From positions 344,100,001 through 344,164,000 of the forward strand of contig NW_027362768.1 of NCBI RefSeq assembly GCF_046119375.1: 64,000 nucleotides of DNA, in the 5' to 3' direction. A model generated the notes under the pieces. The model searched no databases, was not told the DNA's origin, and was given only the letters and a program-made list of their open reading frames with translations. This document shows, piece by piece, positions 7,585 to 47,304 of the stretch. The first letter of the stretch is position 1; each line of letters opens with the position of its first letter. The translations under genes were made by a program, and so were the position numbers. This DNA comes from Phyllobates terribilis (lineage: Eukaryota).

Positions 7585-7708
7585 CTAAAAAGAGAGAGAG
7601 AGAATAAAAGAAGGGTTCGAGGTGCGCCCTCCTGGCCTGTGACACAAAGGGGAGACGGTGGAGGAGAGGAGGGACACGGGGACCCTGACTGCTGACACAG
7701 ATACTCAC

Positions 7709-7728
7709 GGCTCTACAGCATCCGCCAT
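7709..7728 (-). CDS. UBA3: UBA3 exon 1 coding part (start codon)
   Basis: ATG GCG GAT GCT GTA GAG CC|GTGAGT = MADAVEP (human MADGEEP). Consensus donor, 124-nt intron 1. The ATG overlaps a YY1-like core (ATGGCGG). Confidence 0.92.
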
Positions 7729-8465
7729 ATTTGTCTCAGCCTCTCTCTTCCCACAATGCACCGGCGCCCTGGAGGCGTGGTCAGCGTGGACTGGCCATAA
7801 AGACCAAAGGTGTTTTTTTTTTTTTTTTTCTTTCAATAACTTTATTGCTACCGTGACAAAGAACATTAGTAGAGCCACAGCAGGTGGACGGATATGGAGG
7901 CTCCTGTCGCCTAGCAACCTGCTGGTTAGAAGCTTCAGCGCAGCCTGCGAGTTGCTAGGAGTCAGTCATGTAGTGTGTTCAGTGCAGAGCAGGCTGCAAT
8001 GGAGTTATTAGAAAGGGCTAAATATTAACCCCTTCCCACCAACATCACCGCCATTTTTCATTTTCATGCTTCCGGGGGTTGTTTCCTCCCACTTCTTCCA
8101 ATAGCCATAACTATTTTTTTTCAAAATGGCGTTAAAAAAATGGCTTGATTGATTTTTTTTTCTCCATTTAAGCCATAAAAAACATTAAAAATATAACGCT
8201 GGGGCCATGTTCACATGTAGCATAAATGCCGCATTTTTTCTGCAGGCGTCCGCCCCTCACTAGGCAATAATCTTTTTTCAGCATGAAAAACGCAGATGTT
8301 GGCAGGAAAAACACTTCGCACGTGCGTTTTCATACTTTTTTTACGCGTTTTTTGTTGAGTTTTTAGGCATTCATTTTAGATGGGGAAAAATGCTGCAAAA
8401 AATATTGAAAAATGCATCGATGGCTTAAAAACACAAGGAAAAAATTATACTGGGACTGTAAAACT

Positions 8466-11400
8466 CCCCTATATTAGTGCCGGTCACAGTGCCCCCTATA
8501 TTAGTGCCGGTCACAGTGCCCCCTATATTAGTGCCGGTCACAGCACCCCCTATATTAGTGCCGGTCACAGTGCCCCCTATATTAGTGCCAATCACAACAC
8601 CCCCTATATTAGTGCCGGTCACAATGCCCCCCCTATATTAGTGCCGGTCACAGTGCCCCCTATATTAGTGCCGGTCACAGTGCCCCCTATATTAGTGCCA
8701 ATCACAACACCCCCTATATTAGTGCCGGTCACAATGCCCCCCCTATATTAGTGCCGGTCACAGTGCCCCCTATATTAGTGCCAATCACAACGCCCCCTAT
8801 ATTAGTGCCGGTCACAATGCCCCCCCTATATTAGTGCCGGTCACAGTGCCCCCTATATTAGTGCCGGTCACAGTGCCCCCTATATTAGTGCCAATCACAA
8901 CACCCCCTATATTAGTGCCGGTCACAATGCCCCCCCTATATTAGTGCCAGTCACAGTGCCCCCTATATTAGTGCCAATCACAACGCCCCCTATATTAGTG
9001 CCGGTCACAATGCCCCCCCTATATTAGTGCCGGTCACAATGCCGCCCCTATATTAGTGCCGGTCACAGTGCCCCCTATATTAGTGCCGGTCACAGTGCCC
9101 CCTATATTAGTGCCAATCACAATGCCCCCATATATTAGTGCCAGTCACAGTGCCCCCCTATATTAGTGCCGGTCACAGTGCCCCCTATATTAGTGTCGGT
9201 CACAGTGCCCCCTATATTAGTGCCAGTCACAGTGCCCCCCTACATTAGTGCCGGTCACAGTGCCCCCTATATTAGTGTCGGTCACAGTGCCCCCTATATT
9301 AGTGCCGGTCACAGTGCCCCCTATATTAGTGCCGGTCACAGTGCCCCCTATATTAGTGTCGGTCACAGTGCCCCCTATATTAGTGCCAATCACAATGCCC
9401 CCCTATATTAGTGCCAGTCACAGTGCCCCCCTATATTAGTGCTGGTCACAGTGCCCCCTATATTAGTGTCGGTCACAGTGCCCCCTATATTAGTGCCGGT
9501 CACAGTGCCCCCCTACATTAGTGCCGGTCACAGTGCCCCCTATATTAGTGTCGGTCACAGTGCCCCCTATATTAGTGCCGGTCACAGTGCCCCCTATATT
9601 AGTGTCGGTCACAGTGCCCCCTATATTAGTGCCGGTCACAGTGCCCCCTATATTAGTGTCGGTCACAGTGCGCCCTATATTAGTGCCGGTCACAATGCCC
9701 CCCTATATTAGTGCCGGTCACAGTGCCCCCCTATATGAGTGCCGGTCACAATGCCCCCCTATATTAGTGCCGATCACAGTGCCCCCCTATATTAGTGCCG
9801 GTCACAGTGCCCCCTATATTAGTGCTGGTCACAGTGCCCCCTATATTAGTGCCGGTCACAGTGCCCCCTATAGTAGTGCCGGTCACAGCGCCCCCTATAG
9901 TAGTGCCGGTCACAATGCCCCCTATATTAGTGCCGGTCACAGCGCCCCCTATATTAGTGCCGGTCACAATGCCCCCCCTATATTAGTGCCGATCACAGTG
10001 CCCCCTATATTAGTGCCGGTCACAGTGCCCCCTATAGTAGTGCCGGTCACAGAGCCTCCTAGAGTAGTGCCGGTCACAACGCCCCCTATATTAGTGCCGG
10101 TCGCAGCGCCCCCTACATTAGTGCCGGTCACAACGCCCCTTATAGTAGTGCCGATCGCAGCGCCCCCTATATTAGTGCCGGTCACAACGCCCCCTATATT
10201 AGTGCCGGTCACAGCGCCCCCTATTTTAGTGCCGGTCACAATGCCCCCCTATATTAGTGCCGGTCACAGTGCCCCCCTATATGAGTGCCGGTCACAATGC
10301 CCCCCTATATTAGTGCCGATCACAGTGCCCCCCTATATTAGTGCCGGTCACAGTGCCCCCTATATTAGTGCTGGTCACAGTGCCCCCTATATTAGTGCCG
10401 GTCACAGTGCCCCCTATAGTAGTGCCGGTCACAGCGCCCCCTATAGTAGTGCCGGTCACAATGCCCCCTATATTAGTGCCGGTCACAGCGCCCCCTATAT
10501 TAGTGCCGGTCACAATGCCCCCCCTATATTAGTGCCGATCACAGTGCCCCCTATATTAGTGCCGGTCACAGTGCCCCCTATAGTAGTGCCGGTCACAGAG
10601 CCTCCTAGAGTAGTGCCGGTCACAACGCCCCCTATATTAGTGCCGGTCGCAGCGCCCCCTACATTAGTGCCGGTCACAACGCCCCTTATAGTAGTGCCGA
10701 TCGCAGCGCCCCCTATATTAGTGCCGGTCACAACGCCCCCTATATTAGTGCCGGTCACAGCGCCCCCTATTTTAGTGCCGGTCACAATGCCCCCCTATAT
10801 TAGTGCCGGTCACAGTGCCCTCTATATTAGTGCCGGTCACAGTGCCCCCTATATTAGTGCCGGTCACAGCGCCCCCTATATTAGTGCCGGTCACAGCGCC
10901 CTCTATATTAGTGCCGGTCACAGTGCCCCCTATTTTACTGCCGGTCACAGAGCCCCCTAGAGTAGTGCCGGTCACAACGCCCCCTATATTAGTGCCGGTC
11001 AAAGCGTCTCCAATATTAGTGCCGGTCAAAGCGTCTCCAATATTTGTGCCGGTCACAGTGCCTCCCTATAGTAGTGCCGGTCACAGTGCCCCCCCTATAG
11101 TAGTGCCGGTCACAGTGCCCCCCTATAGTAGTGCCGGTCACAGTGCCGGTCACAGTGCCCCCCTATAGTAGTGCCGGTCACAGTGCCCCCTATAGTAGTG
11201 CCGGTCACAGTGCCCCCTATAGTAGCGCCGGTCACAGTGCCCCCCTACATTAGTGCCGGTCACAGTGCCCCCCTATATTAGTGCCGGTCACAGTGCCCCC
11301 TATATTAGTGCCGGTCACAGTGCCCTCTATAGTAGTGCCGGTCACAGTGCCCCCCTATATTAGTGCCAGTCACAGTGCCCCCCTATATTAGTGCGGGTCA

Positions 11401-14400
11401 CAGTACTCCCTATATTAGTGCCGGTCACAGTGCATAGTAGTGCCGGTCACAGTACCCCCTATATTAGTGCGGGTCACAGTGCCCCCTATATTAGTGCCGG
11501 TCACAGTGCCCCCTATATTAGTGTCGGTCACAGTGCCCCCTATATTAGTGCCGGTCACAGTGCCCACTATATTAGTGTCGGTCACAGTGCGCCCTATATT
11601 AGTGGCGGTCACAATGCCCCCCTATATTAGTGCCGGTCACAGTGCCCCCCTATATTAGTGCCGGTCACAATGCCCCCCTATATTAGTGCCGATCACAGTG
11701 CCCCCCTATATTAGTGTCGGTCACAGTGCCCCCTATATTAGTGCTGGTCACAGTGCCCCCCTATATTAGTGCCGGTCACAGCGCCCCCTATATTAGTGCC
11801 GGTCACAGCGCCCCCTATATTTGTGCCGGTCACAGCGCCCCCTATAGTAGTGCCGATCACAGCGCCCCCTATATTAGTGCCGGTCACAGCGCCCCCTATA
11901 TTAGTGCCGGTCACAATGCCCCCTATATTAGTGCCGGTCACAGTGCCCCCCCTATATTAGTGCCGGTCACAGTGCCCCCTATATTAGTGCCGGTCACAGT
12001 GCCCCCTATAGTAGTGTCGGTCACAGTGCCCCCTATATTAGTGCCGGTCACAGTGCCCCCTATATTAGTGTCGGTCACAGTGCGCCCTATATTAGTGGCG
12101 GTCACAATGCCCCCCTATATTAGTGCCGGTCACAGTGCCCCCTATATTAGTGCCGGTCACAGTGCCCCCTATAGTAGTGCCGGTCACAGTGCCCCCTATA
12201 TTAGTGCCGGTCACAATGCCCCCTATATTAGTGCCGGTCACAGCGCCCCCTATATTAGTGCCGGTCACAGCGCCCCCCCTATATTAGTGCCGGTCACAAT
12301 GCCCCCCCTATATTAGTGCCGGTCACAGTGCCCCCTATATTAGTGCCGGTCACAGTGCCCCCTATATTAGTGCCGGTCACAGTGCCCCCTAGAGTAGTGC
12401 CGGTCACAATGCCCCATATATTAGTGCCGGTCACAGCGCCCCCTACATTAGTGCCGGTCACAACGCCCCCTATAGTAGTGCCGGTCGCAGCGCCCCCTAT
12501 ATTAGTGCCGGTCACAACGCCCCCTATATTAGTGCCGGTCACAGCGCCCCCTATATTAGTGCCGGTCACAATGCCCCCCTATATTAGTGCCGGTCACAGC
12601 GCCCTCTATATTAGTGCCGGTCACAGCGCCCCCTATATTAGTGCCGGTCACAGCGCCCCCTATATTAGTGCCGGTCACAGCGCCCTCTATATTAGTGCCG
12701 GTCACAGCGCCCTCTATATTAGTGCCGGTCACAGCGCCCCCTATATTACTGCCGGTCACAGCGCCCCCTATATTAGTGCCGGTCACAGCGTCCCCTATAT
12801 TAGTGCCGGTCACAGCGTCCCCTATATTAGTGCCGGTCACGGCGCCCCCTATATTAGTGCCGGTCACAGCGCCCCCCCTATATTAGTGCCGGTCACAATG
12901 CCCCCCCTATATTAGTGCCGGTCACAGTGCCCCCTATATTAGTGCCGGTCACAGTGCCACCTATATTAGTGCCGGTCACAGTGCCCCCTATAGTAGTGCC
13001 GGTCACAGTGCCCCCTAGAGTAGTGCCGGTCACAATGACCCCTATATTAGTGCCGGTCACAGCGCCCCCTACATTAGTGCCGGTCACAACGCCCCCTATA
13101 GTAGTGCCGGTCACAGTGCCCCCTAGAGTAGTGCCGGTCACAATGCCCCCTATATTAGTGCCGGTCACAGCGCCCCCTACATTAGTGCCGGTCACAGCGC
13201 CCCCTACATTAGTGCCGGTCACAACGCCCCCTATAGTAGTGCCGGTCGCAGCGCCCCCTATATTAGTGCCGGTCACAACGCCCCCTATATTAGTGCCGGT
13301 CACAGTGCCCCCTATATTAGTGCCGGTCACAATGCCCCCTATATTAGTGCCGGTCACAGCGCCCCCTATATTAGTGCCGGTCACAGCGCCCCCCCTATAT
13401 TAGTGCCGGTCACAATGCCCCCCCTATATTAGTGCCGGTCACAGTGCCCCCTATATTAGTGCCGGTCACAGTGCCCCCTATATTAGTGCCGGTCACAGTG
13501 CCCCCTAGAGTAGTGCCGGTCACAATGCCCCATATATTAGTGCCGGTCACAGCGCCCCCTACATTAGTGCCGGTCACAACGCCCCCTATAGTAGTGCCGG
13601 TCGCAGCGCCCCCTATATTAGTGCCGGTCACAACGCCCCCTATATTAGTGCCGGTCACAGCGCCCCCTATATTAGTGCCGGTCACAATGCCCCCCTATAT
13701 TAGTGCCGGTCACAGCGCCCTCTATATTAGTGCCGGTCACAGCGCCCCCTATATTAGTGCCGGTCACAGCGCCCCCTATATTAGTGCCGGTCACAGCGCC
13801 CTCTATATTAGTGCCGGTCACAGCGCCCCCTATATTAGTGCCGGTCACAGCGCCCCCTATATTACTGCCGGTCACAGCGCCCCCTATATTAGTGCCGGTC
13901 ACAGCGTCCCCTATATTAGTGCCGGTCACAGCGTCCCCTATATTAGTGCCGGTCACGGCGCCCCCTATATTAGTGCCGGTCACAGCGCCCCCCCTATATT
14001 AGTGCCGGTCACAATGCCCCCCCTATATTAGTGCCGGTCACAGTGCCCCCTATATTAGTGCCGGTCACAGTGCCACCTATATTAGTGCCGGTCACAGTGC
14101 CCCCTATAGTAGTGCCGGTCACAGTGCCCCCTAGAGTAGTGCCGGTCACAATGACCCCTATATTAGTGCCGGTCACAGCGCCCCCTACATTAGTGCCGGT
14201 CACAACGCCCCCTATAGTAGTGCCGGTCACAGTGCCCCCTAGAGTAGTGCCGGTCACAATGCCCCCTATATTAGTGCCGGTCACAGCGCCCCCTATATTA
14301 GTGCCGGTCACAGCGCCCCCTATATTTGTGCCGGTCACAGCGCCCCCTATAGTAGTGCCGATCACAGCGCCCCCTATATTAGTGCCGGTCACAGCGCCCC

Positions 14401-17400
14401 CTATATTAGTGCCGGTCACAATGCCCCCTATATTAGTGCCGGTCACAGTGCCCCCCCTATATTAGTGCCGGTCACAGTGCCCCCTATATTAGTGCCGGTC
14501 ACAGTGCCCCCTATAGTAGTGTCGGTCACAGTGCCCCCTATATTAGTGCCGGTCACAGTGCCCCCTATATTAGTGTCGGTCACAGTGCGCCCTATATTAG
14601 TGGCGGTCACAATGCCCCCCTATATTAGTGCCGGTCACAGTGCCCCCTATATTAGTGCCGGTCACAGTGCCCCCTATAGTAGTGCCGGTCACAGTGCCCC
14701 CTATATTAGTGCCGGTCACAATGCCCCCTATATTAGTGCCGGTCACAGCGCCCCCTATATTAGTGCCGGTCACAGCGCCCCCCCTATATTAGTGCCGGTC
14801 ACAATGCCCCCCCTATATTAGTGCCGGTCACAGTGCCCCCTATATTAGTGCCGGTCACAGTGCCCCCTATATTAGTGCCGGTCACAGTGCCCCCTAGAGT
14901 AGTGCCGGTCACAATGCCCCATATATTAGTGCCGGTCACAGCGCCCCCTACATTAGTGCCGGTCACAACGCCCCCTATAGTAGTGCCGGTCGCAGCGCCC
15001 CCTATATTAGTGCCGGTCACAACGCCCCCTATATTAGTGCCGGTCACAGCGCCCCCTATATTAGTGCCGGTCACAATGCCCCCCTATATTAGTGCCGGTC
15101 ACAGCGCCCTCTATATTAGTGCCGGTCACAGCGCCCCCTATATTAGTGCCGGTCACAGCGCCCCCTATATTAGTGCCGGTCACAGCGCCCTCTATATTAG
15201 TGCCGGTCACAGCGCCCCCTATATTAGTGCCGGTCACAGCGCCCCCTATATTACTGCCGGTCACAGCGCCCCCTATATTAGTGCCGGTCACAGCGTCCCC
15301 TATATTAGTGCCGGTCACAGCGTCCCCTATATTAGTGCCGGTCACGGCGCCCCCTATATTAGTGCCGGTCACAGCGCCCCCCCTATATTAGTGCCGGTCA
15401 CAATGCCCCCCCTATATTAGTGCCGGTCACAGTGCCCCCTATATTAGTGCCGGTCACAGTGCCACCTATATTAGTGCCGGTCACAGTGCCCCCTATAGTA
15501 GTGCCGGTCACAGTGCCCCCTAGAGTAGTGCCGGTCACAATGACCCCTATATTAGTGCCGGTCACAGCGCCCCCTACATTAGTGCCGGTCACAACGCCCC
15601 CTATAGTAGTGCCGGTCACAGTGCCCCCTAGAGTAGTGCCGGTCACAATGCCCCCTATATTAGTGCCGGTCACAGCGCCCCCTACATTAGTGCCGGTCAC
15701 AGCGCCCCCTACATTAGTGCCGGTCACAACGCCCCCTATAGTAGTGCCGGTCGCAGCGCCCCCTATATTAGTGCCGGTCACAACGCCCCCTATATTAGTG
15801 CCGGTCACAGTGCCCCCTATATTAGTGCCGGTCACAATGCCCCCTATATTAGTGCCGGTCACAGCGCCCCCTATATTAGTGCCGGTCACAGCGCCCCCCC
15901 TATATTAGTGCCGGTCACAATGCCCCCCCTATATTAGTGCCGGTCATAGTGCCCCCTATATTAGTGCCGGTCACAGTGCCCCCTATATTAGTGCCGGTCA
16001 CAGTGCCCCCTAGAGTAGTGCCGGTCACAATGCCCCATATATTAGTGCCGGTCACAGCGCCCCCTACATTAGTGCCGGTCACAACGCCCCCTATAGTAGT
16101 GCCGGTCGCAGCGCCCCCTATATTAGTGCCGGTCACAACGCCCCCTATATTAGTGCCGGTCACAGCGCCCCCTATATTAGTGCCGGTCACAATGCCCCCC
16201 TATATTAGTGCCGGTCACAGCGCCCTCTATATTAGTGCCGGTCACAGCGCCCCCTATATTAGTGCCGGTCACAGCGCCCCCTATATTAGTGCCGGTCACA
16301 GCGCCCTCTATATTAGTGCCGGTCACAGCGCCCCCTATATTAGTGCCGGTCACAGCGCCCCCTATATTACTGCCGGTCACAGCGCCCCCTATATTAGTGC
16401 CGGTCACAGCGTCCACTATATTAGTGCCGGTCACAGCGTCCCCTATATTAGTGCCGGTCACGGCGCCCCCTATATTAGTGCCGGTCACAGCGCCCCCCCT
16501 ATATTAGTGCCGGTCACAATGCCCCCCCTATATTAGTGCCGGTCACAGTGCCCCCTATATTAGTGCCGGTCACAGTGCCACCTATATTAGTGCCGGTCAC
16601 AGTGCCCCCTATAGTAGTGCCGGTCACAGTGCCCCCTAGAGTAGTGCCGGTCACAATGACCCCTATATTAGTGCCGGTCACAGCGCCCCCTACATTAGTG
16701 CCGGTCACAACGCCCCCTATAGTAGTGCCGGTCACAGTGCCCCCTAGAGTAGTGCCGGTCACAATGCCCCCTATATTAGTGCCGGTCACAGCGCCCCCTA
16801 CATTAGTGCCGGTCACAGCGCCCCCTACATTAGTGCCGGTCACAACGCCCCCTATAGTAGTGCCGGTCGCAGCGCCCCCTATATTAGTGCCGGTCACAAC
16901 GCCCCCTATATTAGTGCCGGTCACAGTGCCCCCTAGAGTAGTGCCGGTCACAATGCCCCCTATATTAGTGCCGGTCACAGCGCCCCCTACATTAGTGCCG
17001 GTCACAACGCCCCCTATAGTAGTGCCGGTCGCAGCGCCCCCTATATTAGTGCCGGTCACAGCGCCCCCTACATTAGTGCCGGTCACAACGCCCCCTATAG
17101 TAGTGCCGGTCACAGTGCCCCCTAGAGTAGTGCCGGTCACAACGCCCCCTATAGTAGTGCCGGTCGCAGCGCCCCCTATATTAGTGCCGGTCACAACGCC
17201 CCCTATATTAGTGCCGGTCACAATGCCCCCCTATATTAGTGCCGGTCACAGCGCCCTCTATATTAGTGCCGGTCACAGCGCCCCCTATATTAGTGCCGGT
17301 CACAGCGCCCCCTATATTAGTGCCGGTCACAGCGCCCTCTATATTAGTGCCGGTCACAGCGCCCCCTATATTAGTGCCGGTCACAGCGCCCCCTATATTA

Positions 17401-20400
17401 CTGCCGGTCACAGCGCCCCCTATATTAGTGCCGGTCACAGCGTCCCCTATATTAGTGCCGGTCACAGTGTCCCCTATATTAGTGCCGGTCAAAGCGTCCC
17501 CTATATTAGTGCCGGTCAAAGCGTCTCCAATATTAGTGCCAGTCAAAGCGTCTCCAATATTTGTGCCGGTCACAGTGCCCCCCTATATTAGCGCCGGTCA
17601 CAGCGCCCCCTATATTAGTGCCGGTCACAGTGCCCCCTATATTAGTGCCGGTCACAGTGCCCCCTATATTAGTGCCGGTCACAGTGCCCCCTATATTAGT
17701 GCCGGTCACAGCACCCCCTATATTAGTGCCGGTCACAGTGCCCCCTATATTAGTGCCAATCACAACACCCCCTATATTAGTGCCGGTCACAATGCCCCCC
17801 CTATATTAGTGCCGGTCACAGTGCCCCCTATATTAGTGCCGGTCACAGTGCCCCCTATATTAGTGCCAATCACAACACCCCCTATATTAGTGCCGGTCAC
17901 AATGCCCCCCCTATATTAGTGCCGGTCACAGTGCCCCCTATATTAGTGCCAATCACAACGCCCCCTATATTAGTGCCGGTCACAATGCCCCCCCTATATT
18001 AGTGCCGGTCACAGTGCCCCCTATATTAGTGCCGGTCACAGTGCCCCCTATATTAGTGCCAATCACAACACCCCCTATATTAGTGCCGGTCACAATGCCC
18101 CCCCTATATTAGTGCCAGTCACAGTGCCCCCTATATTAGTGCCAATCACAACGCCCCCTATATTAGTGCCGGTCACAATGCCCCCCCTATATTAGTGCCG
18201 GTCACAATGCCGCCCCTATATTAGTGCCGGTCACAGTGCCCCCTATATTAGTGCCGGTCACAGTGCCCCCTATATTAGTGCCAATCACAATGCCCCCATA
18301 TATTAGTGCCAGTCACAGTGCCCCCCTATATTAGTGCCGGTCACAGTGCCCCCTATATTAGTGTCGGTCACAGTGCCCCCTATATTAGTGCCAGTCACAG
18401 TGCCCCCCTACATTAGTGCCGGTCACAGTGCCCCCTATATTAGTGTCGGTCACAGTGCCCCCTATATTAGTGCCGGTCACAGTGCCCCCTATATTAGTGC
18501 CGGTCACAGTGCCCCCTATATTAGTGTCGGTCACAGTGCCCCCTATATTAGTGCCAATCACAATGCCCCCCTATATTAGTGCCAGTCACAGTGCCCCCCT
18601 ATATAAGTGCTGGTCACAGTGCCCCCTATATTAGTGTCGGTCACAGTGCCCCCTATATTAGTGCCGGTCACAGTGCCCCCCTACATTAGTGCCGGTCACA
18701 GTGCCCCCTATATTAGTGCCGGTCACAGTGCCCCCTATATTAGTGTCGGTCACAGTGCCCCCTATATTAGTGCCGGTCACAGTGCCCCCTATATTAGTGT
18801 CGGTCACAGTGCGCCCTATATTAGTGCCGGTCACAATGCCCCCCTATATTAGTGCCGGTCACAGTGCCCCCCTATATTAGTGCCGGTCACAATGCCCCCC
18901 TATATTAGTGCCGATCACAGTGCCCCCCTATATTAGTGCCGGTCACAGTGCCCCCTATATTAGTGCTGGTCACAGTGCCCCCTATATTAGTGCCGGTCAC
19001 AGTGCCCCCTATAGTAGTGCCGGTCACAGCGCCCCCTATAGTAGTGCCGGTCACAATGCCCCCTATATTAGTGCCGGTCACAGCGCCCCCTATATTAGTG
19101 CCGGTCACAATGCCCCCCCTATATTAGTGCCGATCACAGTGCCCCCTATATTAGTGCCGGTCACAGTGCCCCCTATAGTAGTGCCGGTCACAGAGCCTCC
19201 TAGAGTAGTGCCGGTCACAACGCCCCCTATATTAGTGCCGGTCGCAACGCCCCCTACATTAGTGCCGGTCACAACGCCCCTTATAGTAGTGCCGATCGCA
19301 GGGTCCCCTATATTAGTGCCGGTCACAACGCCCCCTATATTAGTGCCGGTCACAGCGCCCCCTATTTTAGTGCCGGTCACAATGCCCCCCTATATTAGTG
19401 CCGGTCACAGTGCCCTCTATATTAGTGCCGGTCACAGTGCCCCCTATATTAGTGCCGGTCACAGCGCCCCCTATATTAGTGCCGGTCACAGCGCCCTCTA
19501 TATTAGTGCCGGTCACAGTGCCCCCTATTTTACTGCCGGTCACAGAGCCCCCTAGAGTAGTGCCGGTCACAACGCCCCCTATATTAGTGCCGGTCAAAGC
19601 GTCTCCAATATTAGTGCCGGTCAAAGCGTCTCCAATATTTGTGCCGGTCACAGTGCCCCCCTATAGTAATGCCGGTCACAGTGCCCCCCCTATAGTAGTG
19701 CCGGTCACAGTGCCCCCCTATAGTAGTGCCGGTCACAGTGCCGGTCACAGTGCCCCCCTATAGTAGTGCCGGTCACAGTGCCCCCTATAGTAGTGCCGGT
19801 CACAGTGCCCCCTATAGTAGCGCCGGTCACAGTGCCCCCCTACATTAGTGCCGGTCACAGTGCCCCCCTATATTAGTGCCGGTCACAGTGCCCCCTATAT
19901 TAGTGCCGGTCACAGTGCCCTCTATATTAGTGCCGGTCACAGTGCCCCCCTATATTAGTGCCAGTCACAGTGCCCCCCTATATTAGTGCGGGTCACAGTA
20001 CTCCCTATATTAGTGCCGGTCACAGTGCATAGTAGTGCCGGTCACAGTACCCCCTATATTAGTGCGGGTCACAGTGCCCCCTATATTAGTGCCGGTCACA
20101 GTGCCCCCTATATTAGTGTCGGTCACAGTGCCCCCTATATTAGTACCGGTCACAGTGCCCACTATATTAGTGTCGGTCACAGTGCGCCCTATATTAGTGG
20201 CGGTCACAATGCCCCCCTATATTAGTGCCGGTCACAGTGCCCCCCTATATTAGTGCCGGTCACAATGCCCCCCTATATTAGTGCCGATCACAGTGCCCCC
20301 CTATATTAGTGCCGGTCACAGTGCCCCCTATATTAGTGCTGGTCACAGTGCCCCCCTATATTAGTGCCGGTCACAGCGCCCCCTATATTAGTGCCGGTCA

Positions 20401-23400
20401 CAGCGCCCCCTATATTTGTGCCGGTCACAGCGCCCCCTATAGTAGTGCCGATCACAGCGCCCCCTAAATTAGTGCCGGTCACAGCGCCCCCTATATTAGT
20501 GCCGGTCACAATGCCCCCTATATTAGTGCCGGTCACAGTGCCCCCCCTATATTAGTGCCGGTCACAGTGCCCCCTATATTAGTGCCGGTCACAGTGCCCC
20601 CTATAGTAGTGTCGGTCACAGTGCCCCCTATATTAGTGCCGGTCACAGTGCCCCCTATATTAGTGTCGGTCACAGTGCGCCCTATATTAGTGGCGGTCAC
20701 AATGCCCCCCTATATTAGTGCCGGTCACAGTGCCCCCTATATTAGTGCCGGTCACAGTGCCCCCTATAGTAGTGCCGGTCACAGTGCCCCCTATATTAGT
20801 GCCGGTCACAATGCCCCCTATATTAGTGCCGGTCACAGCGCCCCCTATATTAGTGCCGGTCACAGCGCCCCCCCTATATTAGTGCCGGTCACAATGCCCC
20901 CCTATATTAGTGCCGGTCACAGTGCCCCCTATATTAGTGCCGGTCACAGTGCCCCCTATATTAGTGCCGGTCACAGTGCCCCCTAGAGTAGTGCCGGTCA
21001 CAATGCCCCATATATTAGTGCCGGTCACAGCGCCCCCTACATTAGTGCCGGTCACAACGCCCCCTATAGTAGTGCCGGTCGCAGCGCCCCCTATATTAGT
21101 GACGGTCACAACGCCCCCTATATTAGTGCCGGTCACAGCGCCCCCTATATTAGTGCCGGTCACAATGCCCCCCTATATTAGTGCCGGTCACAGCGCCCTC
21201 TATATTAGTGCCGGTCACAGCGCCCCCTATATTAGTGCCGGTCACAGCGCCCCCTATATTAGTGCCGGTCACAGCGCCCTCTATATTAGTGCCGGTCACA
21301 GCGCCCCCTATATTAGTGCCGGTCACAGCGCCCCCTATATTACTGCCGGTCACAGCGCCCCCTATATTAGTGCCGGTCACAGCGTCCCCTATATTAGTGC
21401 CGGTCACAGCGTCCCCTATATTAGTGCCGGTCACGGCGCCCCCTATATTAGTGCCGGTCACAGCGCCCCCCCTATATTAGTGCCGGTCACAATGCCCCCC
21501 CTATATTAGTGCCGGTCACAGTGCCCCCTATATTAGTGCCGGTCACAGTGCCACCTATATTAGTGCCGGTCACAGTGCCCCCTATAGTAGTGCCGGTCAC
21601 AGTGCCCCCTAGAGTAGTGCCGGTCACAATGACCCCTATATTAGTGCCGGTCACAGCGCCCCCTACATTAGTGCCGGTCACAACGCCCCCTATAGTAGTG
21701 CCGGTCACAGTGCCCCCTAGAGTAGTGCCGGTCACAATGCCCCCTATATTAGTGCCGGTCACAGCGCCCCCTACATTAGTGCCGGTCACAGCGCCCCCTA
21801 CATTAGTGCCGGTCACAACGCCCCCTATAGTAGTGCCGGTCGCAGCGCCCCCTATATTAGTGCCGGTCACAACGCCCCCTATATTAGTGCCGGTCACAGT
21901 GCCCCCTAGAGTAGTGCCGGTCACAATGCCCCCTATATTAGTGCCGGTCACAGCGCCCCCTACATTAGTGCCGGTCACAACGCCCCCTATAGTAGTGCCG
22001 GTCGCAGCGCCCCCTATATTAGTGCCGGTCACAGCGCCCCCTACATTAGTGCTGGTCACAACGCCCCCTATAGTAGTGCCGGTCACAGTGCCCCCTAGAG
22101 TAGTGCCGGTCACAACGCCCCCTATAGTAGTGCCGGTCGCAGCGCCCCCTATATTAGTGCCGGTCACAACGCCCCCTATATTAGTGCCGGTCACAATGCC
22201 CCCCTATATTAGTGCCGGTCACAGCGCCCTCTATATTAGTGCCGGTCACAGCGCCCCCTATATTAGTGCCGGTCACAGCGCCCCCTATATTAGTGCCGGT
22301 CACAGCGCCCTCTATATTAGTGCCGGTCACAGCGCCCCCTATATTAGTGCCGGTCACAGCGCCCCCTATATTACTGCCGGTCACAGCGCCCCCTATATTA
22401 GTGCCGGTCACAGCGTCCCCTATATTAGTGCCGGTCACAGTGTCCCCTATATTAGTGCCGGTCAAAGCGTCCCCTATATTAGTGCCGGTCAAAGCGTCTC
22501 CAATATTAGTGCCAGTCAAAGCGTCTCCAATATTTGTGCCGGTCACAGTGGCCCCCTATAGTAGTGCCGGTCACATTGCCCCCCTATAGTAGTGCCGGTC
22601 ACAGTGCCCCCTATAGTAGTGCCGGTCACAGTGCCCCCTATAGTAACGCCGGTCACAGTGCCCCCATACATTAGTGCCGGTCACAGTGCCCCCCTATATT
22701 AGTGCCGGTCACAGTGCCCCCCTATAGTAGTGCCGGTCACAGTGCCAGTCACAGTGCCCCCCTATAGTAGTGCCGGTCACAGTGCCCCCTATAGTAGTGC
22801 CGGTCACAGTGCCCCCTATAGTAGCGCCGGTCACAGTGCCCCCCTACATTAGTGCCGGTCACAGTGCCCCCCTATATTAGTGCCGGTCACAGTGCCCCCT
22901 ATATTAGTGCCGGTCACAGTGCCCCCCTATAGTAGTGCCGGTCACAGTGCCCCCCTATAGTAGTGCCGGTCACAGTGCCCCCTATAGTAGTGCCGGTCAC
23001 AATGCCCCCTATAGTAGCGCCGGTCACAGTGCCCCCCTACATTAGTGCCGGTCACAGTACCCCCCTATATTAGTGCCGGTCACAGTGCCCCCTATATTAG
23101 TGCCGGTCACAGTGCCCCCTATATTAGTGCCGGTCACAGTGCCCCCCTATATTAGTGCCAGTCACAGTGCCCCCCTATATTAGTGCGGGTCACAGTACCC
23201 CCTATATTAGTGCCGGTCACAGTGCATAGTAGTGCCGGTCACAGTACCCCCTATATTAGTGCGGGTCACATTGCCCCCTATATTAGTGCCGGTCACAGTG
23301 CCCCCTATATTAGTGTCGGTCACAGTGCCCCCTATATTAGTGCCGGTCACAGTGCCCCCTATATTAGTGTCGGTCACAGAGCGCCCTATATTAGTGGCGG

Positions 23401-26127
23401 TCACAATGCCCCCCTATATTAGTGCCGGTCACAGTGCCCCCCTATATTAGTGCCGGTCACAATGCCCCCCTATATTAGTGCCGATCACAGTGCCCCCCTA
23501 TATTAGTGCCGGTCACAGTGCCCCCTATATTAGTGCTGGTCACAGTGCCCCCCTATATTAGTGCCGGTCACAGCGCCCCCTATATTAGTGCCGGTCACAG
23601 CGCCCCCTATATTTGTGCCGGTCACAGCGCCCCCTATAGTAGTGCCGGTCACAGCGCCCCCTATATTAGTGCCGGTCACAATGCCCCCTATATTAGTGCC
23701 GGTCACAGCGCCCCCTATATTAGTGCCGGTCACAATGCCCCCCCTATATTAGTGCCGGTCACAGTGCCCCCTATATTAGTGCCGGTCACAGTGCCCCCTA
23801 TAGTAGTGTCGGTCACAGTGCCCCCTATATTAGTGCCGGTCACAGTGCCCCCTATATTAGTGGCGGTCACAGTGCGCCCTATATTAGTGGCGGTCACAAT
23901 GCCCCCCTATATTAGTGCCGGTCACAGTGCCCCCCTATATTAGTGCCGGTCACAATGCCCCCCTATATTAGTGCCGATCACAGTGCCCCCCTATATTACT
24001 GCCGGTCACAGCGTCCCCTATATTACTGCCGGTCACAGCGCCCCCTATATTAGTGCCGGTCACAGCGTCCCCTATATTAGTGCCGGTCACAGCGTCCCCT
24101 ATATTAGTGCCGGTCAAAGCGTCTCCAATATTAGTGCCGGTCAAAGCGTCTCCAATATTTGTGCCGGTCACAGTGCCCCCCTATAGTAGTGCCGGTCACG
24201 GTGCCCCCCCTATATTAGTGCCGGTCACAGTGCCCCCCTATAGTAGTGCCGGTCACAGTGCCGGTCACAGTGCCCCCCTATAGTAGTGCCGGTCACAGTA
24301 CCCCCTATAGTAGCGCCGGTCACAGTGCCCCCCTATATTAGTGCCGGTCACAGTGCCCCCTATATTAGTGCCGGTCACAGTGACCCCTATATTAGTGCCA
24401 GTCACAGTGCCCCCCTATATTAGTGCGGGTCACAGTACCCCCTATATTAGTGCCGGTCACAGTGCATAGTAGTGCGGGTCACAGTACCCCCTATATTAGT
24501 GCGGGTCACAGTGCCCCCTATATTAGTGCCGGTCACAGTGCCCCCTATATTAGTGTCGGTCACAGTGCCCCCTATATTAGTGCCGGTCACAGTGCCCCCT
24601 ATATTAGTGTCGGTCACAGTGCGCCCTATATTAGTGGCGGTCACAATGCCCCCCTATATTAGTGCCGGTCACAGTGCCCCCCTATATTAGTGCCGGTCAC
24701 AATGCCCCCCTATATTAGTGCCGATCACAGTGCCCCCCTATATTAGTGCCGGTCACAGCGCCCCCTATATTAGTGCCGGAAACAGTGCCCCCCTATATTA
24801 GTGCCGGTCACAGCGCCCCCTATATTTGTGCCGGTCACAGCGCCCCCTATAGTTGTGCCGGTCACAGCGCCCCCTATATTAGTGCCGGTCACAGTGCCCC
24901 CTATATTAGTGCCGGTCACAGTGCCCCCTATATTAGTACCGGTCACAGTGCCTCCTATAGTAGCGCCGGTCACAGTGCCCCCTATATTAGTGCCGGTCAC
25001 AGTGCCTCCTATATTAGTGCCGGTCACAGTGCCTCCTATAGTAGCGCCGGTCACAGTGCCCCCTATATTAGCGCCGGTCACAGTGCCCCCTATATTAGTG
25101 CCGGTCACAGTGCCCCCTATATTAGTGCCGGTCACAGTGCCCCCTATATTAGTGCCGGTCACAGTGCCCCCTATATTAGTGCCGGTCACAGTGCCCCCTA
25201 TATTAGTGCCGGTCACAGTGCCTCCTATAGTAGCGCCGGTCACAGTGCCCCCTATATTAGTGCCGGTCACAGTGCCTCCTATATTAGTGCCGGTCACAGT
25301 GCCCCCTATATTAGTGCCGGTCACAATGCCCCCCCTATATTAGTGCCGGTCACAGTGCCCCCTATATTAGTGCCGGTCACAGTGCCTCCTATATTAGTGC
25401 CGGTCACAGTGCCCCCTATATTAGTGCCGGTCACAGTGCCCCCTATATTAGTGCCGGTCACAGTGCCTCCTATAGTAGCGCCGGTCACAGTGCCTCCTAT
25501 AGTAGCGCCAATCACAGTGCCTCCTATATTAGCGCCGGTCACAGTGCCCCCTATATTAGCGCCGGTCACAGTGCCCCCTATATTAGCGCCGGTCACAGTG
25601 CCCCCTATAGTAGCGCCAATCACAGTGCCTCCTATATTAGCGCCGGTCACAGTACCCTCTATATTAGCGCCGGTCACAGTGCCCCCTATATTAGCGCCGG
25701 TCACAGTGCCCCCTATATTAGCGCCGGTCACAGTGCCCCCTATATTAGCGCCGGTCACGGTGCCCCCTACATTAGTGCCGGTCACAGTGCCCCCTACATT
25801 AGTGCCGGTCACAGTGCCCCCTATATTAGCGCCGGTCACAGTGCCCCCTACATTAGTGCCGGTCACAGTGCCTCCTACATTAGTGCCGGTCACAGTGCCC
25901 CCTATATTAGCGCCGGTCACAGTACCCTCTATATTAGCGCCGGTCACAGTGCCCCCTATATTAGCGCCGGTCACAGTGCCCCCTATATTAGTGCCGGTCA
26001 CAGCGCCCCCTATATTAGCGCCGGTCACAGTGCCCCCTACATTAGTGCCGGTCACAGTGCCTCCTACATTAGTGCCGGTCACAGTACCCTCTATAGTAGT
26101 GCCAGTCACAGTGCCCCTATATAAGTG
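8466..26127. repeat. 27-bp tandem satellite, ~17.7 kb, ~650 units, with higher-order repeats
   Basis: Consensus TATATTAGTGCCGGTCACAGTGCCCCC. The C-run varies, giving 27-29-bp units. Continuous from 8466 to ~26127 with no unique spacers. Confidence 0.98.
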
Positions 26128-26137
26128 TCTTATGCTC

Positions 26138-27617
26138 TGTGATGAACCTGTAGCCGCCATCTTGGTAATGATAAATCATATCCAGGGATGGCCACACTTC
26201 AGCAGCCCCCACCCTTGGGACCTTCTGTTAAAACGTCAACTAGATAGTTTCCCCCCATCCAGGCTCCTGTAAGATAAGAAGCCTACTTAACACTTGAATG
26301 CTAGGAGCTTCAAAGACTTCGAGAGGAAACACAGCCAGCAGGGGGGGGTGCTTCGTCTATCTGTACCTGACCATTTGTCCCATAGGACTAGTTTCTTTGT
26401 CTGTCACAAGCATGGAGGCATAAGATATAGAAACATGAAAAGTACACGCATGTTGCATGGGATGGGCCAATAAAAAAATATCACGGCGTCCCGGAGCCAT
26501 TGCGCACACAAGCCTCCGCGGTAGACGTTTGTACGTGCTCTGGAAGCCAAGATATAGCGCGGAGCCATTCCTGAGGACCGTATGGTATCATAATTGATAT
26601 CAAAAGGTCGGTTACGGCGGCCCGAATCCATGGGAACCCCTGGGGGTATCATGAGACCATCCCAGAAGAAGTTATTGGGTTCCATAGAATTTGGGCTTCT
26701 GATCGAAGTTAGACCTGAGGGTGGAGACTGAGTCAGCTGACCTCACCAGCAGTGGGCGGGACAGGGCAGGTAAGATAGCAGGACAGACAAGAGACAAGTC
26801 AGTCTTGACCCAAGAGTGGTGTGCTGAACATCTGAGCACCAGCTGAGGCCACCAAGGGGAGGAGCAGTTTGACCATGCGGTGGTAGGCCTCAGCCTGTAA
26901 CAAAGAACCGTGCCTGCGATCGCAGAATCCTCTCCCTGCGTCACAAGAAAATCAAGAAACCGGTAACTGATATGCTGTGGTGATTCTGTGTGTTGTATTC
27001 CATTGTTGTATAGTTTAGCCTGACCTTATACCTGTGTATATTTAGTTGTATATCGTGTATCTAGTGTATTATTATAATCAATTACCTCAAGTAATTGTGG
27101 GCCTGCCTTTTATTCTGCATAACGAACGCACGTCCGTGTGAGCTCGGCTCAAGCCAAAACGCTACCCAGGGTTGGTTCCTGACCCGATATAGGCCCATTC
27201 ACGGACTGGGCGTATATCTAAAATAGGGACTGGTGGCAGCATACCAACTGGGGATTGGGGAAGGCTGGTAGTGACGGTCGGAGGTTCAGATATATATATT
27301 CCTGGCGCGGCCAAGGAAGATATATATACCGCCCTCACTACAGAGGGCCCCGATACCCAGTAGGTTACAGGACAGTCTCCCTGGCGACCGCTTATCCTAG
27401 GTGCAGTTCCTTGACTGACCTGAGGCTAAGAGGGCGCTAGCGAGTTGTGCTGTGTAGTGACGTTACGGTTTAGTGACGTTGAAGGGATAACACACTACCG
27501 TGTTCCCTGCGCTGGTTGCAGCTACCTGGCACTACTTTCTCTAGGTGCAGTACCTTGACTGACCTGAGAGGTAAGGGGGCGCCAGAGAGCTGCACCCACC
27601 GGCCGGCTTTCATCACA
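26138..27617. mobile_element. Solo LTR (or LTR-like insertion), 1480 bp
   Basis: Starts TGTGATGAA and ends TTCATCACA (9-bp inverted TG...CA termini). Perfect 5-bp TSD TGCTC at 26133-26137 and 27618-27622. AATAAA at 26469-26474. Internal 28-bp direct repeat at 27397 and 27541. No coding capacity. Confidence 0.85.
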
Positions 27618-27813
27618 TGCTCCAACATATAAAAGCCATCAGATCCACCAGTCTAGTCGCTTATTTTGAGGATTTGTGCCTCACAGGCTGCAGAACATGA
27701 TCCATAGATCGTTTATCACACTGCCATTCCTTTGCCAATCACAACATGGCGACTTTAATCATGTGTCACATCGCCCTCTAGTGTTTGCTCGACTTCGCAC
27801 CTGGAAAATGTTC

Positions 27814-27878
27814 TGCGCATGCTCTCCCGAGCTGCCGATTGACGTCTTCAGGGCTGCAGAAGATTGACGCGCATGCGC
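27814..27878 (+). promoter_or_regulatory. ARL6IP5 proximal promoter motifs (NRF1-type and CRE-like)
   Basis: Palindrome GCGCATGCGC at 27869-27878, a second partial TGCGCATGCT at 27814-27823, and TGACGTCT at 27840-27847. CpG-rich, 40-100 bp upstream of the ATG. Confidence 0.6.
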
Positions 27879-27917
27879 AGTCGCTGTGTGAGGTTTACAG
27901 GCTCAGCTGCAAGGAAG

Positions 27918-28093
27918 ATGGACGTGCAGGTGGCGCCGCTGCGGGCCTGGGACGATTTCTTCCCCGGCTCCGACCGCTTCAGCCGACCAGATTTCAAAGA
28001 CATCTCCAGATGGAACAACAGAGTCGTCAGCAATCTGCTGTACTACCAGACCAACTACCTGGCGCTGGCGGCGGCCGTCGTCTGCCTGGTGGG
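27918..28093 (+). CDS. ARL6IP5: PRA1 family protein 3 (JWA/GTRAP3-18), exon 1 (176 nt)
   Basis: AAG ATG G start; [59 protein letters not shown]; donor GG|GTAAGT at 28094. Confidence 0.98.
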
Positions 28094-28744
28094 GTAAGTG
28101 GGAATGATGCTGCGACTGAGGGGGGGGAGGGGAGTAACATTGCACCTGCACTATGGTACTCCACCTGATGAGGACAGCAGCGTGTACAGGGCATGCTGGG
28201 ACCTGTGGTTCTACACAGCTAGTGGGTGATGCTCCATATGGGACCTCAGACGTCATCCCTTGTAGGTTTTCTGCAGTTGGACGCATGGCAGCATATGTCA
28301 CAGACTGTAAGACTATGGAAATGTCTCATAATCCTGGAGAACAGGACAGACAGGTCTCAGGTGTGAGTGCCTAAGATCCCCATAGTGCCTCCTAGCTGCA
28401 GGCGCCACACTGTGCTGGGGACAAGTACTGTGGCTCTATGCGGCTAGTCACCTCGTCCCCTGGCTACGACATTATTATTATTTTTTTTTCTTCTGAAAAT
28501 GTGTAATGTCCCTTTAAGGCCAATTTCACTCGTCCATCATTGACAGTCTCTACTGACTTCCGTTCCTGGACTGGTCACAGGTCCTCGTATATGCCTATAA
28601 CACTGCTGACACCCACAACCGCCCCGGACAGCACAGATTTACCAAGTTTTAAAGTGGATCTGTCGGCAGATTTCATCATAAACTGCATACATTACTAAAT
28701 AGATTCTTTATGAAAGTTTGACCCAATCTCTATTTCTCTAGCCT

Positions 28745-46300: not shown

Positions 46301-47304
46301 ACCCTGCTGTGTGAACTTTGTCTTTATGATTCAGTGCTAGATTTCCTAGCGGCAATCCCCTCTACCCAGGGTGGGATTATTCTACACCCAAAAACTTTAG
46401 GCAAGAATGGAAAACTCAAGTGGGATTTAAGCGAGCTTTTTGGGACTTTAATTTTGATAGCCCACTTAAAGGGACAGGTCTTCAGTAGCGGATCCATGTG
46501 GACCAGACTCCTGACACCTATTGATCGAAGGAGCTCATGACATGGTTTAGTGGCCATGAAGGGTACTGCAAGCTCCCACCCTTTCATTGTATCAGAATGC
46601 TTGCAGTACCATTCACAACCACTATGCGATGTATGGCGCTGGGAAACACTAGGAAGCTGACCTTTTCTTTTCAGTCTCGGACTGCTCCTTTAAGACTTCT
46701 GCATTCCGAGCGGCTTGCTCTTATTGATTTGCATACAAGGGATTTTCTTCTTGTTCTACACCTTTTCTGTACATAATATGGTCTTGTAGTATTACCTAGG
46801 GCCGAGGCGTTACTGACTCAATGGTGACGAGAAAAACTAGCACTTCTAGCAGCTATGCATGAGTAAAGTCTAGTATCAGTGCAATATTTCACACGTGTAT
46901 GGAAGCTTGGAAATGAGAAGCAACTTACCAATAAACTGAAACCTGACAAAAACTGGAGTTTTGGGTGTTTTTATTTTCTTTTTATATTGTGGTAGTCAAT
47001 TGCTGCCGGATGTCTCTACAGTGGCGTACCTAGGAAGGTAGATGTCCGAGGCCCCTCCTGAGCTGGGGCTGATGCTCCTCACTACTCATAGAGGATTGAG
47101 AAGAGGCCCCGAGGTACAGCTGTCACTATGGTATTCAGGGTGGGGGAAGGCACTGGCTTATTTTAAGTGCCAAAAATAAATACTGAAACAAATTTGTCAG
47201 AAATGATTTTCTTTGTGTGTATGAGAAGCACTAAGGCTCCTGGTATTATACAGAAGAGTTTAACTTGACAGCCAAGTCTCTGATTTACCTTGAAGACGTA
47301 TACT

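What the first reader, a model, noticed from the sequence alone, without database searches (positions are those of the whole stretch)
7728..27918. Head-to-head UBA3/ARL6IP5 promoter interval split by 19 kb of repeats
The two start codons are 20,190 bp apart. Removing the satellite (~17.66 kb) and the LTR plus one TSD (1,485 bp) leaves only ~1.05 kb: ~740 bp on the UBA3 side and ~300 bp on the ARL6IP5 side. That is the size of a shared bidirectional promoter, and these genes are also divergent neighbours in human. Two housekeeping genes appear to tolerate a huge CpG-containing satellite within a few hundred bp of both promoters. This is a natural experiment in promoter uncoupling and in boundaries against heterochromatin spread. 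It is the most striking structure in the window.
Basis: partly seen in the sequence, partly recalled or inferred. Interest (0 to 1): 0.75.

Follow-up and report, generated by a model that had tools for sequence, protein, structure and literature searches.

The report
Repeat-stuffed gap between paired frog promoters
In a 10.6-billion-base frog genome, 19 kb of repeated DNA lies between the starts of two back-to-back housekeeping genes, likely tolerated because each gene appears to keep its own small promoter, and arrays of this size are common on this chromosome.

Summary
The UBA3 and ARL6IP5 start codons are 20,190 bp apart, separated by a 17.7-kb array of a 27-bp unit and a 1,480-bp solo LTR; 1,042 bp is left. 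The unit variant is private to this locus. The array grew by nested block duplications, and its right junction is bridged in another sample. The LTR is a young Gmr1-type Gypsy insertion, absent in that sample. Chicken has an 882-bp gap, but human has 4,695 bp with co-expression r = 0.84, so no sub-kb shared promoter is needed. Each side carries its own promoter motifs, and spliced ARL6IP5 RNA is seen. Tandem arrays fill 40% of twenty 10-kb samples of this chromosome. Of three control head-to-head pairs, two stay under 0.8 kb and HNRNPA2B1-CBX3 appears spread to about 40 kb, so this is not unique. Half the units carry a one-mismatch estrogen response element, probably by chance (11 of 31 other arrays also carry some motif). 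The scan noted similar promoter-interval minisatellites before on other DNA (electric ray PPCS/ZMYND12; unchecked). Verdict: a real but ordinary expansion, useful as one case in a genome-wide test.

The parts
7710..7728 (-). UBA3 coding part of exon 1 (ATG at 7728); a YY1-type motif AATATGGCG overlaps the start codon (7723-7731)
   Evidence: sequence and translation; motif scan; downstream UBA3 exons
7729..8030 (-). Inferred UBA3 proximal promoter, single copy, with an exact RFX X-box at 7906-7918
   Evidence: motif scan; single-copy depth of about 6 in run X5; function not tested
8030..8310 (.). Decayed dispersed-repeat fragments between the UBA3 promoter and the array
   Evidence: 39 other hits on window 8123-8270 of 40 scored (369 candidates); multi-copy depth
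8466..26127 (+). Locus-private minisatellite-type array, 27-bp unit, about 647 copies, 56% GC, 51 CpG per kb; holds 328 one-mismatch-or-better ERE-like sites, 6 of them perfect
8466..17633 (+). Array block U1 (9,168 bp): a copy of U2 with 153 more monomers (internal blocks of 20 and 132)
   Evidence: monomer-level alignment
17634..22550 (+). Array block U2 (about 4.9 kb, end approximate): restarts with the array's left-edge monomers, about 0.3% diverged from U1; a 3.6-kb tail follows
   Evidence: 971-bp exact repeat 8466/17634; 15 of 182 aligned monomers differ, the last 2 lying past the breakpoint
26138..27617 (+). Solo LTR of a young Gmr1-type Gypsy retrotransposon, same sense as ARL6IP5, 5-bp target duplication TGCTC (26133-26137 and 27618-27622); polymorphic
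   Evidence: empty site in run X6
27623..27917 (+). Inferred ARL6IP5 proximal promoter and 5' UTR, single copy: CCAAT 27735, YY1-type 27743, CRE-like 27840, NRF1 palindrome 27868-27879
   Evidence: 1 match of 1 candidate in G000; motif scan; spliced RNA contig reaches 27880
27918..28093 (+). ARL6IP5 coding part of exon 1, spliced to exon 2 at about 42076

Best explanation
A 27-bp repeat array of 17.7 kb and a young solo LTR sit between the start codons of UBA3 and ARL6IP5, and they are likely tolerated spacer, because each gene likely runs from its own compact promoter that the repeats left intact. Shown: the anatomy, the locus-private unit, the nested block duplications, the recent and polymorphic LTR, separate motif sets on each side, and spliced ARL6IP5 RNA in one run. 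Inferred: a short seed of the 27-bp family landed in the seam between two adjacent promoters and grew by unequal exchange or slippage of multi-monomer blocks (546, 1,116, 1,389 bp and about 4.9 kb). A Gypsy element then inserted at the array's right edge and collapsed to a solo LTR. Constitutive factors (NRF1, NF-Y, YY1 and CREB types at ARL6IP5; YY1 and RFX types at UBA3) would keep each promoter open without any special boundary element.
For: Human CDS distance is 4,695 bp with co-expression r = 0.84, and the pair is not in the human 1-kb list. Motifs cluster within about 190 bp of each ATG. A contig of run X9 joins ARL6IP5 exon 1 to exon 2 and reaches 27880, directly behind the NRF1 site. 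The mean tandem fraction is 0.40 in 20 spaced 10-kb samples of C8, and 4 of 20 lie wholly in arrays; the 284-kb neighbourhood is 21% tandem without this array and has 17 other arrays of 1 kb or more. A sister array of 87.8 kb with a unit about 81% alike lies on C1 with no shared flanks. Controls: HSPD1/HSPE1 ATG-to-ATG is 744 bp although HSPE1 intron 1 is about 35.7 kb; CBX5/HNRNPA1 about 580 bp; HNRNPA2B1/CBX3 about 40 kb. One half of the human HNRPA2B1-CBX3 element keeps promoter and anti-silencing activity alone (PMC4330381 passages). Unequal crossing over is proposed for frog satellite growth (PMC10794172 section 16).
Against: The chicken gap of 882 bp allows a truly shared promoter in the ancestor. 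Head-to-head pairs resist separation across vertebrates (PMC1487180 passages). The same UCOE paper reports that HNRPA2B1-only fragments were unstable or not protective, so halves are not always autonomous. Motifs are consensus matches from recalled patterns, not binding data. The LTR and array alleles of the RNA sample are unknown. The array is the longest in its 284-kb neighbourhood (next 8.8 kb). The control set is three pairs, and their non-coding or 3-nt first exons were placed from sequence alone.
Confidence: 0.7

Rival explanations
1. The ancestor had one shared bidirectional promoter of about 1 kb; the array cut it in two and uncoupled or altered the expression of the two genes.
For: Chicken gap 882 bp; remainder 1,042 bp; ancient conserved pair with top-rank co-expression; the ARL6IP5 side holds motif types enriched in bidirectional promoters (NF-Y, NRF1, YY1; PMC10887517 passage).
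Against: Human genes are 4.7 kb apart and still co-expressed. Both halves keep their own motifs. About 280 bp of the remainder is repeat debris, so the interval took insertions apart from the array.
Confidence: 0.12
2. The array is a multimerised estrogen-receptor docking site: about half its units carry GGTCAnnnTGCCC, so it would act as a hormone-responsive enhancer for UBA3 or ARL6IP5.
For: 328 sites within one mismatch of GGTCAnnnTGACC, 6 perfect, against 3 in the other 46 kb of the window and 1 in the 88-kb sister array. Chance for this motif alone in shuffled units is 0.0011. Single-base deviations can bind the receptor in vitro (PMC2853111 passage). All 163 genome-wide copies of the ERE-type 19-mer are in this array.
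Against: 21% of shuffled units match one of 9 long motifs at one mismatch, and 11 of 31 other arrays carry some motif in 30% or more of their units. The unit also matches a CArG box at 9 of 10. 175 units carry a second mismatch and perfect sites are about 1%, so nothing shows selection for the site. Most consensus EREs are unbound in cells (51 of 2,310 in PMC2853111). The flanking bases are the non-consensus C/C.
Confidence: 0.06
3. The array is real but its assembled length is inflated, for example two alleles of about 9 kb placed end to end.
For: The left-edge monomers restart at 17634, giving halves of 9,168 and 8,494 bp. Their 0.3% divergence is within the range of differences between samples in the flanks (4 in 634 and 2 in 287).
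Against: There is no N or gap at the join. U1 lacks the 3.6-kb tail that a complete allele would need, and its end does not match the right edge. Even a 9-kb array leaves the interval expanded about tenfold. The depth simulation gave no verdict.
Confidence: 0.12

Closest known systems
Non-centromeric frog minisatellite and satellite expansions (Bredeson et al. 2024, PMC10794172; passages and section 16 read)
   Same: GC-rich short-period tandem array holding the ACAG and (reverse strand) AGGG/TGGG-type words, block-duplication structure, lineage-specific unit, distal part of the chromosome (55 Mb from the end of a 399-Mb contig).
   Different: Here the unit variant is confined to one locus, no parent transposon was found, and arrays were seen along the whole of C8, not only distally.
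Conserved ancestral microsyntenic pairs, UBA3-ARL6IP5 named as one (Irimia et al. 2012, PMC3514665; passages; supplements not available)
   Same: Same genes, same 5'-5' order.
   Different: Gap of 20.2 kb here against 4.7 kb in human (CDS) and 0.9 kb in chicken (gene ends). That paper gives a mean of 29 kb for human 5'-5' pairs with conserved orientation, so 20 kb is not extreme for the class.
A2UCOE, the human HNRPA2B1-CBX3 dual promoter (PMC4330381; passages)
   Same: Divergent housekeeping promoters; one half works alone and resists silencing.
   Different: No chromatin data here. The frog promoters are short and only modestly CpG-rich (o/e 0.57 at 7600-7820, 0.90 at 27780-28100).
Gmr1-type Ty3/Gypsy LTR retrotransposons (clade name and its integrase-before-RT hallmark recalled)
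   Same: Parent copies have paired 1,480-bp LTRs and one 1,682-codon frame with SCAN, zinc knuckle, integrase, then RT and RNase H.
   Different: Only a solo LTR is present at this site. No tree was built, and no envelope domain was among the Pfam hits.

Membership tests
Bidirectional promoter (divergent starts within 1 kb) | Divergent genes on opposite strands | tested here: met
Bidirectional promoter (divergent starts within 1 kb) | Starts no more than 1,000 bp apart in this genome | tested here: not met
   20,190 bp between ATGs; 18,705 bp even on the LTR-free allele if its array has the same length
Bidirectional promoter (divergent starts within 1 kb) | Short gap in the ancestor | tested here: inconclusive
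   chicken 882 bp, human 4,695 bp; no other frog genome available
Bidirectional promoter (divergent starts within 1 kb) | Shared elements drive both genes | not testable with these tools
   needs reporter or deletion assays
Locus-specific expanded minisatellite | Unit of 10-60 bp in a head-to-tail array | tested here: met
   27 bp, 646.5 copies
Locus-specific expanded minisatellite | Confined to one or few loci | tested here: met
   47 of 47 exact dimers, 532 of 536 one-mismatch units and 163 of 163 19-mers lie in this array; 413 of 419 family-pattern hits lie in this and one C1 array
Locus-specific expanded minisatellite | Copy number varies between individuals (VNTR) | tested here: inconclusive
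   short-read contigs cannot span it; depth simulation gave no verdict
Solo LTR of a Gypsy retrotransposon | TG...CA ends and target duplication | tested here: met
   an empty site skips exactly 1,485 bp
Solo LTR of a Gypsy retrotransposon | Same sequence flanks full-length elements with RT and integrase | tested here: met
   19 of 19 other loci fetched are 99.80-99.93% identical; the two full-length copies fetched each have a 1,682-codon frame, one scanned with Pfam
Gmr1 clade | Integrase upstream of reverse transcriptase | tested here: met
   integrase 806-1158, RT 1287-1446, RNase H 1511-1640; the hallmark itself is recalled
Gmr1 clade | Phylogenetic placement of RT | not tested
   no reference set fetched
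Functional estrogen-responsive enhancer | ERE consensus match | tested here: met
   328 sites at one mismatch or better
Functional estrogen-responsive enhancer | Receptor binding and hormone response | not testable with these tools
   needs ChIP or reporter data
Heterochromatin boundary | Methylated or H3K9me3 array next to unmethylated promoters | not testable with these tools
   no chromatin data; CpG-site variation not clearly raised

The most novel reading that the evidence does not exclude
One base change turned a drifting 27-bp repeat into a near-consensus estrogen response element, and array growth multiplied it more than 300-fold between two promoters, creating a new hormone-responsive super-enhancer whose strength scales with array length and which puts the NEDD8-activating enzyme UBA3 under estrogen control.
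Probability: 0.06. Interest if true: 0.75.

Novelty: new member of a known kind. Interest (0 to 1): 0.36.

Why it matters
By itself the locus is one more large array in a genome full of them. Its value is as one case of a wider test. In this genome 2 of 4 conserved head-to-head pairs examined appear pushed apart by 20-40 kb, while 2 stay under 0.8 kb, one of them beside an intron swollen to about 36 kb. If that pattern holds genome-wide, bloated genomes would show which divergent promoters are truly shared and which are two neighbours. The polymorphic solo LTR 300 bp from ARL6IP5 also allows an allele-specific test of how close a young LTR can sit to a housekeeping promoter.

Tried and rejected
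Relative genomes: none held, so no frog outgroup was seen. UBA3 expression: exons 1-2 had no contig cover in runs X6, X9 and X11; the DNA run X6 has the same hole and the tool filters conserved sequence, so this says nothing. Array transcription: no array cover in X9 or X11; no verdict. Array length from summed contig depth: expected values ranged from about 300 to 120,000 depending on the minimum laid length, so 17.7 kb and 8.5 kb could not be told apart; under the most generous setting the left-edge values imply about 4-5 kb or more in X5 and X6. Array carried by a transposon with shared flanks: no flank homology with the C1 sister array. Array seeded from the ARL6IP5 CCAAT box: a 14-bp word is shared (6 places in the array, 1 at 27733), but the edge monomers of both arrays point to a seed without CCAAT, so this was set aside. 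Methylation from CpG decay: not clear. A link from UBA3 to estrogen-receptor turnover is recalled; the review passages read (PMC10995212) link neddylation inhibition to receptor expression but do not name UBA3. The sigma-70 scan is irrelevant to a vertebrate. PMC9334527 (passage) confirmed gene order in cattle only; PMC8962612 (supplements) gave nothing usable; PMC10324214 (passages) says intergenic length rises with anuran genome size. Literature searches listed no paper on this interval in frogs or on ERE-bearing satellite arrays; only listings and abstract starts were seen for papers not named as read. The supplements of PMC3514665 could not be read and may hold distances for this pair in other species.
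Full report
Observation. ARL6IP5 exon 1 hits Pfam PRA1, and further exons of both genes were found. Between them lie a 17,662-bp array of a 27-bp unit at 8466-26127 (646.5 copies) and a 1,480-bp element at 26138-27617 with a 5-bp target duplication. The remainder is 737 + 10 + 295 = 1,042 bp. About 8030-8310 of it is dispersed-repeat debris. The window lies at C8:344.10-344.16 Mb of a 10.57-Gb genome; C8 is 399 Mb long.

The array. Its unit variant is private to this locus: 47 of 47 exact dimer matches in the genome, 532 of 536 one-mismatch unit matches and 163 of 163 matches to a 19-mer are in it. The other 4 led to a sister array of 87.8 kb on C1, whose consensus differs at 5 of 27 positions and which shares no flank. 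A looser family pattern gave 419 hits, 413 in these two arrays and 6 not located. Splitting gave 648 monomers of 110 types with higher-order blocks of 546, 1,116, 1,389 and 2,505 bp. The left 9,168 bp (U1) is a copy of the next 4.9 kb (U2) with 153 more monomers; 15 of 182 aligned monomers differ, the last 2 lying past the breakpoint. Growth by nested block duplication is thus read from the sequence; unequal exchange as its cause is inferred, in line with PMC10794172 (passages and section 16).

Is the array really here? In run X6, a sample other than those flagged as possible sources, one contig runs from 78 letters inside the array across the right edge into the ARL6IP5 promoter. At the left edge, contigs of X6 and X5 run from unique flank 29 and 30 letters into the array, just short of the tool's 31-letter rule for bridging; X5 may be the source of the assembly. 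Summed depth on array bins is hundreds of times the single-copy depth in X5, X6 and X7 and about 90-180 times in X1. A simulation could not separate 17.7 kb from 8.5 kb. A multi-kilobase array at this site is supported; its exact length is not.

The LTR. It matches 40 of 40 scored places at nearly full identity among 1,690 candidates; 19 of 19 other loci fetched are 99.80-99.93% identical. Many occur in pairs about 6.7 kb apart. Two such elements each hold a 1,682-codon frame; the one scanned has SCAN, zinc knuckle, integrase, RT and RNase H in that order, the order I recall for Gmr1-type Gypsy elements. Their paired LTRs differ at 1 and 0 of 1,480 positions, so the family is young. Run X6 has the empty site, a joint that skips exactly 1,485 bp, so the insertion is polymorphic and, as that allele carries the array without it, likely younger than the array.

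The promoters. The 313 bp before the ARL6IP5 ATG are single copy and hold a CCAAT box, a YY1-type site, a CRE-like site and a perfect NRF1 palindrome; the UBA3 side holds a YY1-type site over the ATG and an exact RFX X-box (patterns recalled). A contig of run X9 covers 27880-28095 without differences and continues into exon 2, so it comes from spliced RNA. It ends in adapter sequence at 27880, next to the NRF1 site; contigs cannot prove a start, so this is a hint. UBA3 RNA could not be judged.

How short was the ancestral gap? Chicken UBA3 ends at 15,721,052 and ARL6IP5 begins at 15,721,935, a gap of 882 bp (PMC12747192, table passage). In human the CDS distance is 4,695 bp and the pair is also consecutive in Fugu (PMC1487180 supplements 4 and 5; GeneID 10550 as ARL6IP5 is recalled, GeneID 9039 is tied to UBA3 through the chicken id). 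Neither the names nor GeneID 10550 occur in that paper's human 1-kb list, which does hold HSPE1/HSPD1 (122 bp) and CBX3/HNRPA2B1 (733 bp). Yet UBA3-ARL6IP5 is among the most co-expressed conserved pairs in human (r = 0.84, rank 100; PMC3514665 passage). Co-expression therefore does not need a sub-kilobase gap. No frog outgroup was available.

Is it unusual in this genome? Twenty 10-kb samples spaced along C8 average 40% tandem repeat, and 4 of 20 lie wholly in an array. The 284 kb around the locus is 21% tandem without this array and has 17 other arrays of 1 kb or more, the largest 8.8 kb. Three other head-to-head pairs served as controls, all three reported. HSPD1/HSPE1: 744 bp from ATG to ATG around a heat-shock element, while HSPE1 intron 1 is about 35.7 kb. 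CBX5/HNRNPA1: about 580 bp from the inferred CBX5 exon-1 donor to the HNRNPA1 ATG. HNRNPA2B1/CBX3: about 40 kb from the HNRNPA2B1 ATG to a CpG island with an inferred CBX3 exon 1; the interval has 4.9 kb of tandem repeat and 49% of it matches 0.66 Mb of other fetched loci. Paralogue names rest on recalled protein sequences and on the pairing, and the first exons are placed without RNA. With UBA3/ARL6IP5, 2 of 4 pairs appear spread and 2 of 4 stay tight.

Mechanism. The best reading (0.70) is tolerated spacer between two adjacent, self-sufficient promoters. A precedent for autonomy is the 0.7-kb CBX3 half of the human A2UCOE, which keeps promoter and anti-silencing activity alone, though HNRPA2B1-only fragments did not protect (PMC4330381 passages). 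Against it, head-to-head pairs resist separation in vertebrates (PMC1487180 passages), and nothing here measures expression levels or chromatin. Rivals are a truly shared promoter that was cut (0.12), an inflated assembly length (0.12) and an enhancer role for the array (0.06).

The ERE. About half the units read GGTCA-nnn-TGCCC, one mismatch from the estrogen response element first defined in Xenopus vitellogenin genes (PMC2853111 passages): 328 sites, 6 perfect, against 1 in the sister array. Chance for that motif alone is 0.0011, but 0.21 for any of 9 long motifs, and 11 of 31 other arrays examined carry one of 13 motifs in at least 30% of units. Nothing shows selection for the site. It is a cheap hypothesis to test, not a finding. 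Searches for such an array in papers and in this scan's notes listed none.

Earlier notes. None lay near this place. Word and genome look-ups gave unchecked notes on motif-bearing minisatellites at promoters in other animals and on block-duplicated arrays in this genome; they show the kind recurs and prompted the motif control.

Verdict. Real, correctly described, and ordinary for this genome; a new member of a known kind. Interest 0.36.

Noticed in passing
G000:C4:165,070,250-165,110,490 (L144-L148): HNRNPA2B1 and CBX3, 733 bp apart in human and the source of the A2UCOE element, appear separated by about 40 kb of transposon and tandem repeats; CBX3 exon 1 is inferred from a CpG island and splice donor.
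   Followed up: partly
G000:C9:310,153,200-310,189,630 (L125-L128): HSPE1 intron 1 is about 35.7 kb while the HSPD1/HSPE1 promoter stays at 744 bp from ATG to ATG.
   Followed up: partly
G000:C1:606,909,106-606,996,953 (L070-L079): An 87.8-kb sister array of the same 27-bp family without the ERE-like site, next to a 35-bp array of at least 13 kb.
   Followed up: partly
G000:C8:344,001,377-344,010,179 (L086-L087): An 8.8-kb array of a 28-bp unit whose consensus holds a GC-box-like word and an ETS-type word (153 ETS matches in about 308 units), about 100 kb left of the finding; neighbouring genes not checked.
   Followed up: no
window 36104-41267: A 5-kb, 72% GC array of a roughly 45-bp unit with long G runs inside ARL6IP5 intron 1; the spliced contig shows this intron is removed.
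   Followed up: no
window 47299-51885: A 4.6-kb array of the 86/97-bp satellite that recurs at least four more times within 60 kb to the right.
   Followed up: no
G000, 1,690 candidate places; L066, L067: A very young, high-copy Gmr1-type Gypsy family with long (1,480-bp) LTRs and a SCAN domain in gag; LTR-matching contigs were also seen in the RNA-type run X9.
   Followed up: partly
window 27733-27746 and array 8586, 8696, 8889, 17754, 17864, 18057: A 14-bp word around the ARL6IP5 CCAAT box also occurs in a minor array monomer; probably coincidence.
   Followed up: partly
G000:C1:311,986,400-311,986,555 (L133) and C6087:7855-8001 (L084): An intron-less HP1 chromo-shadow copy with stops just upstream, and a second Cpn10 match on a small contig; probably retrocopies or an unplaced duplicate.
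   Followed up: no
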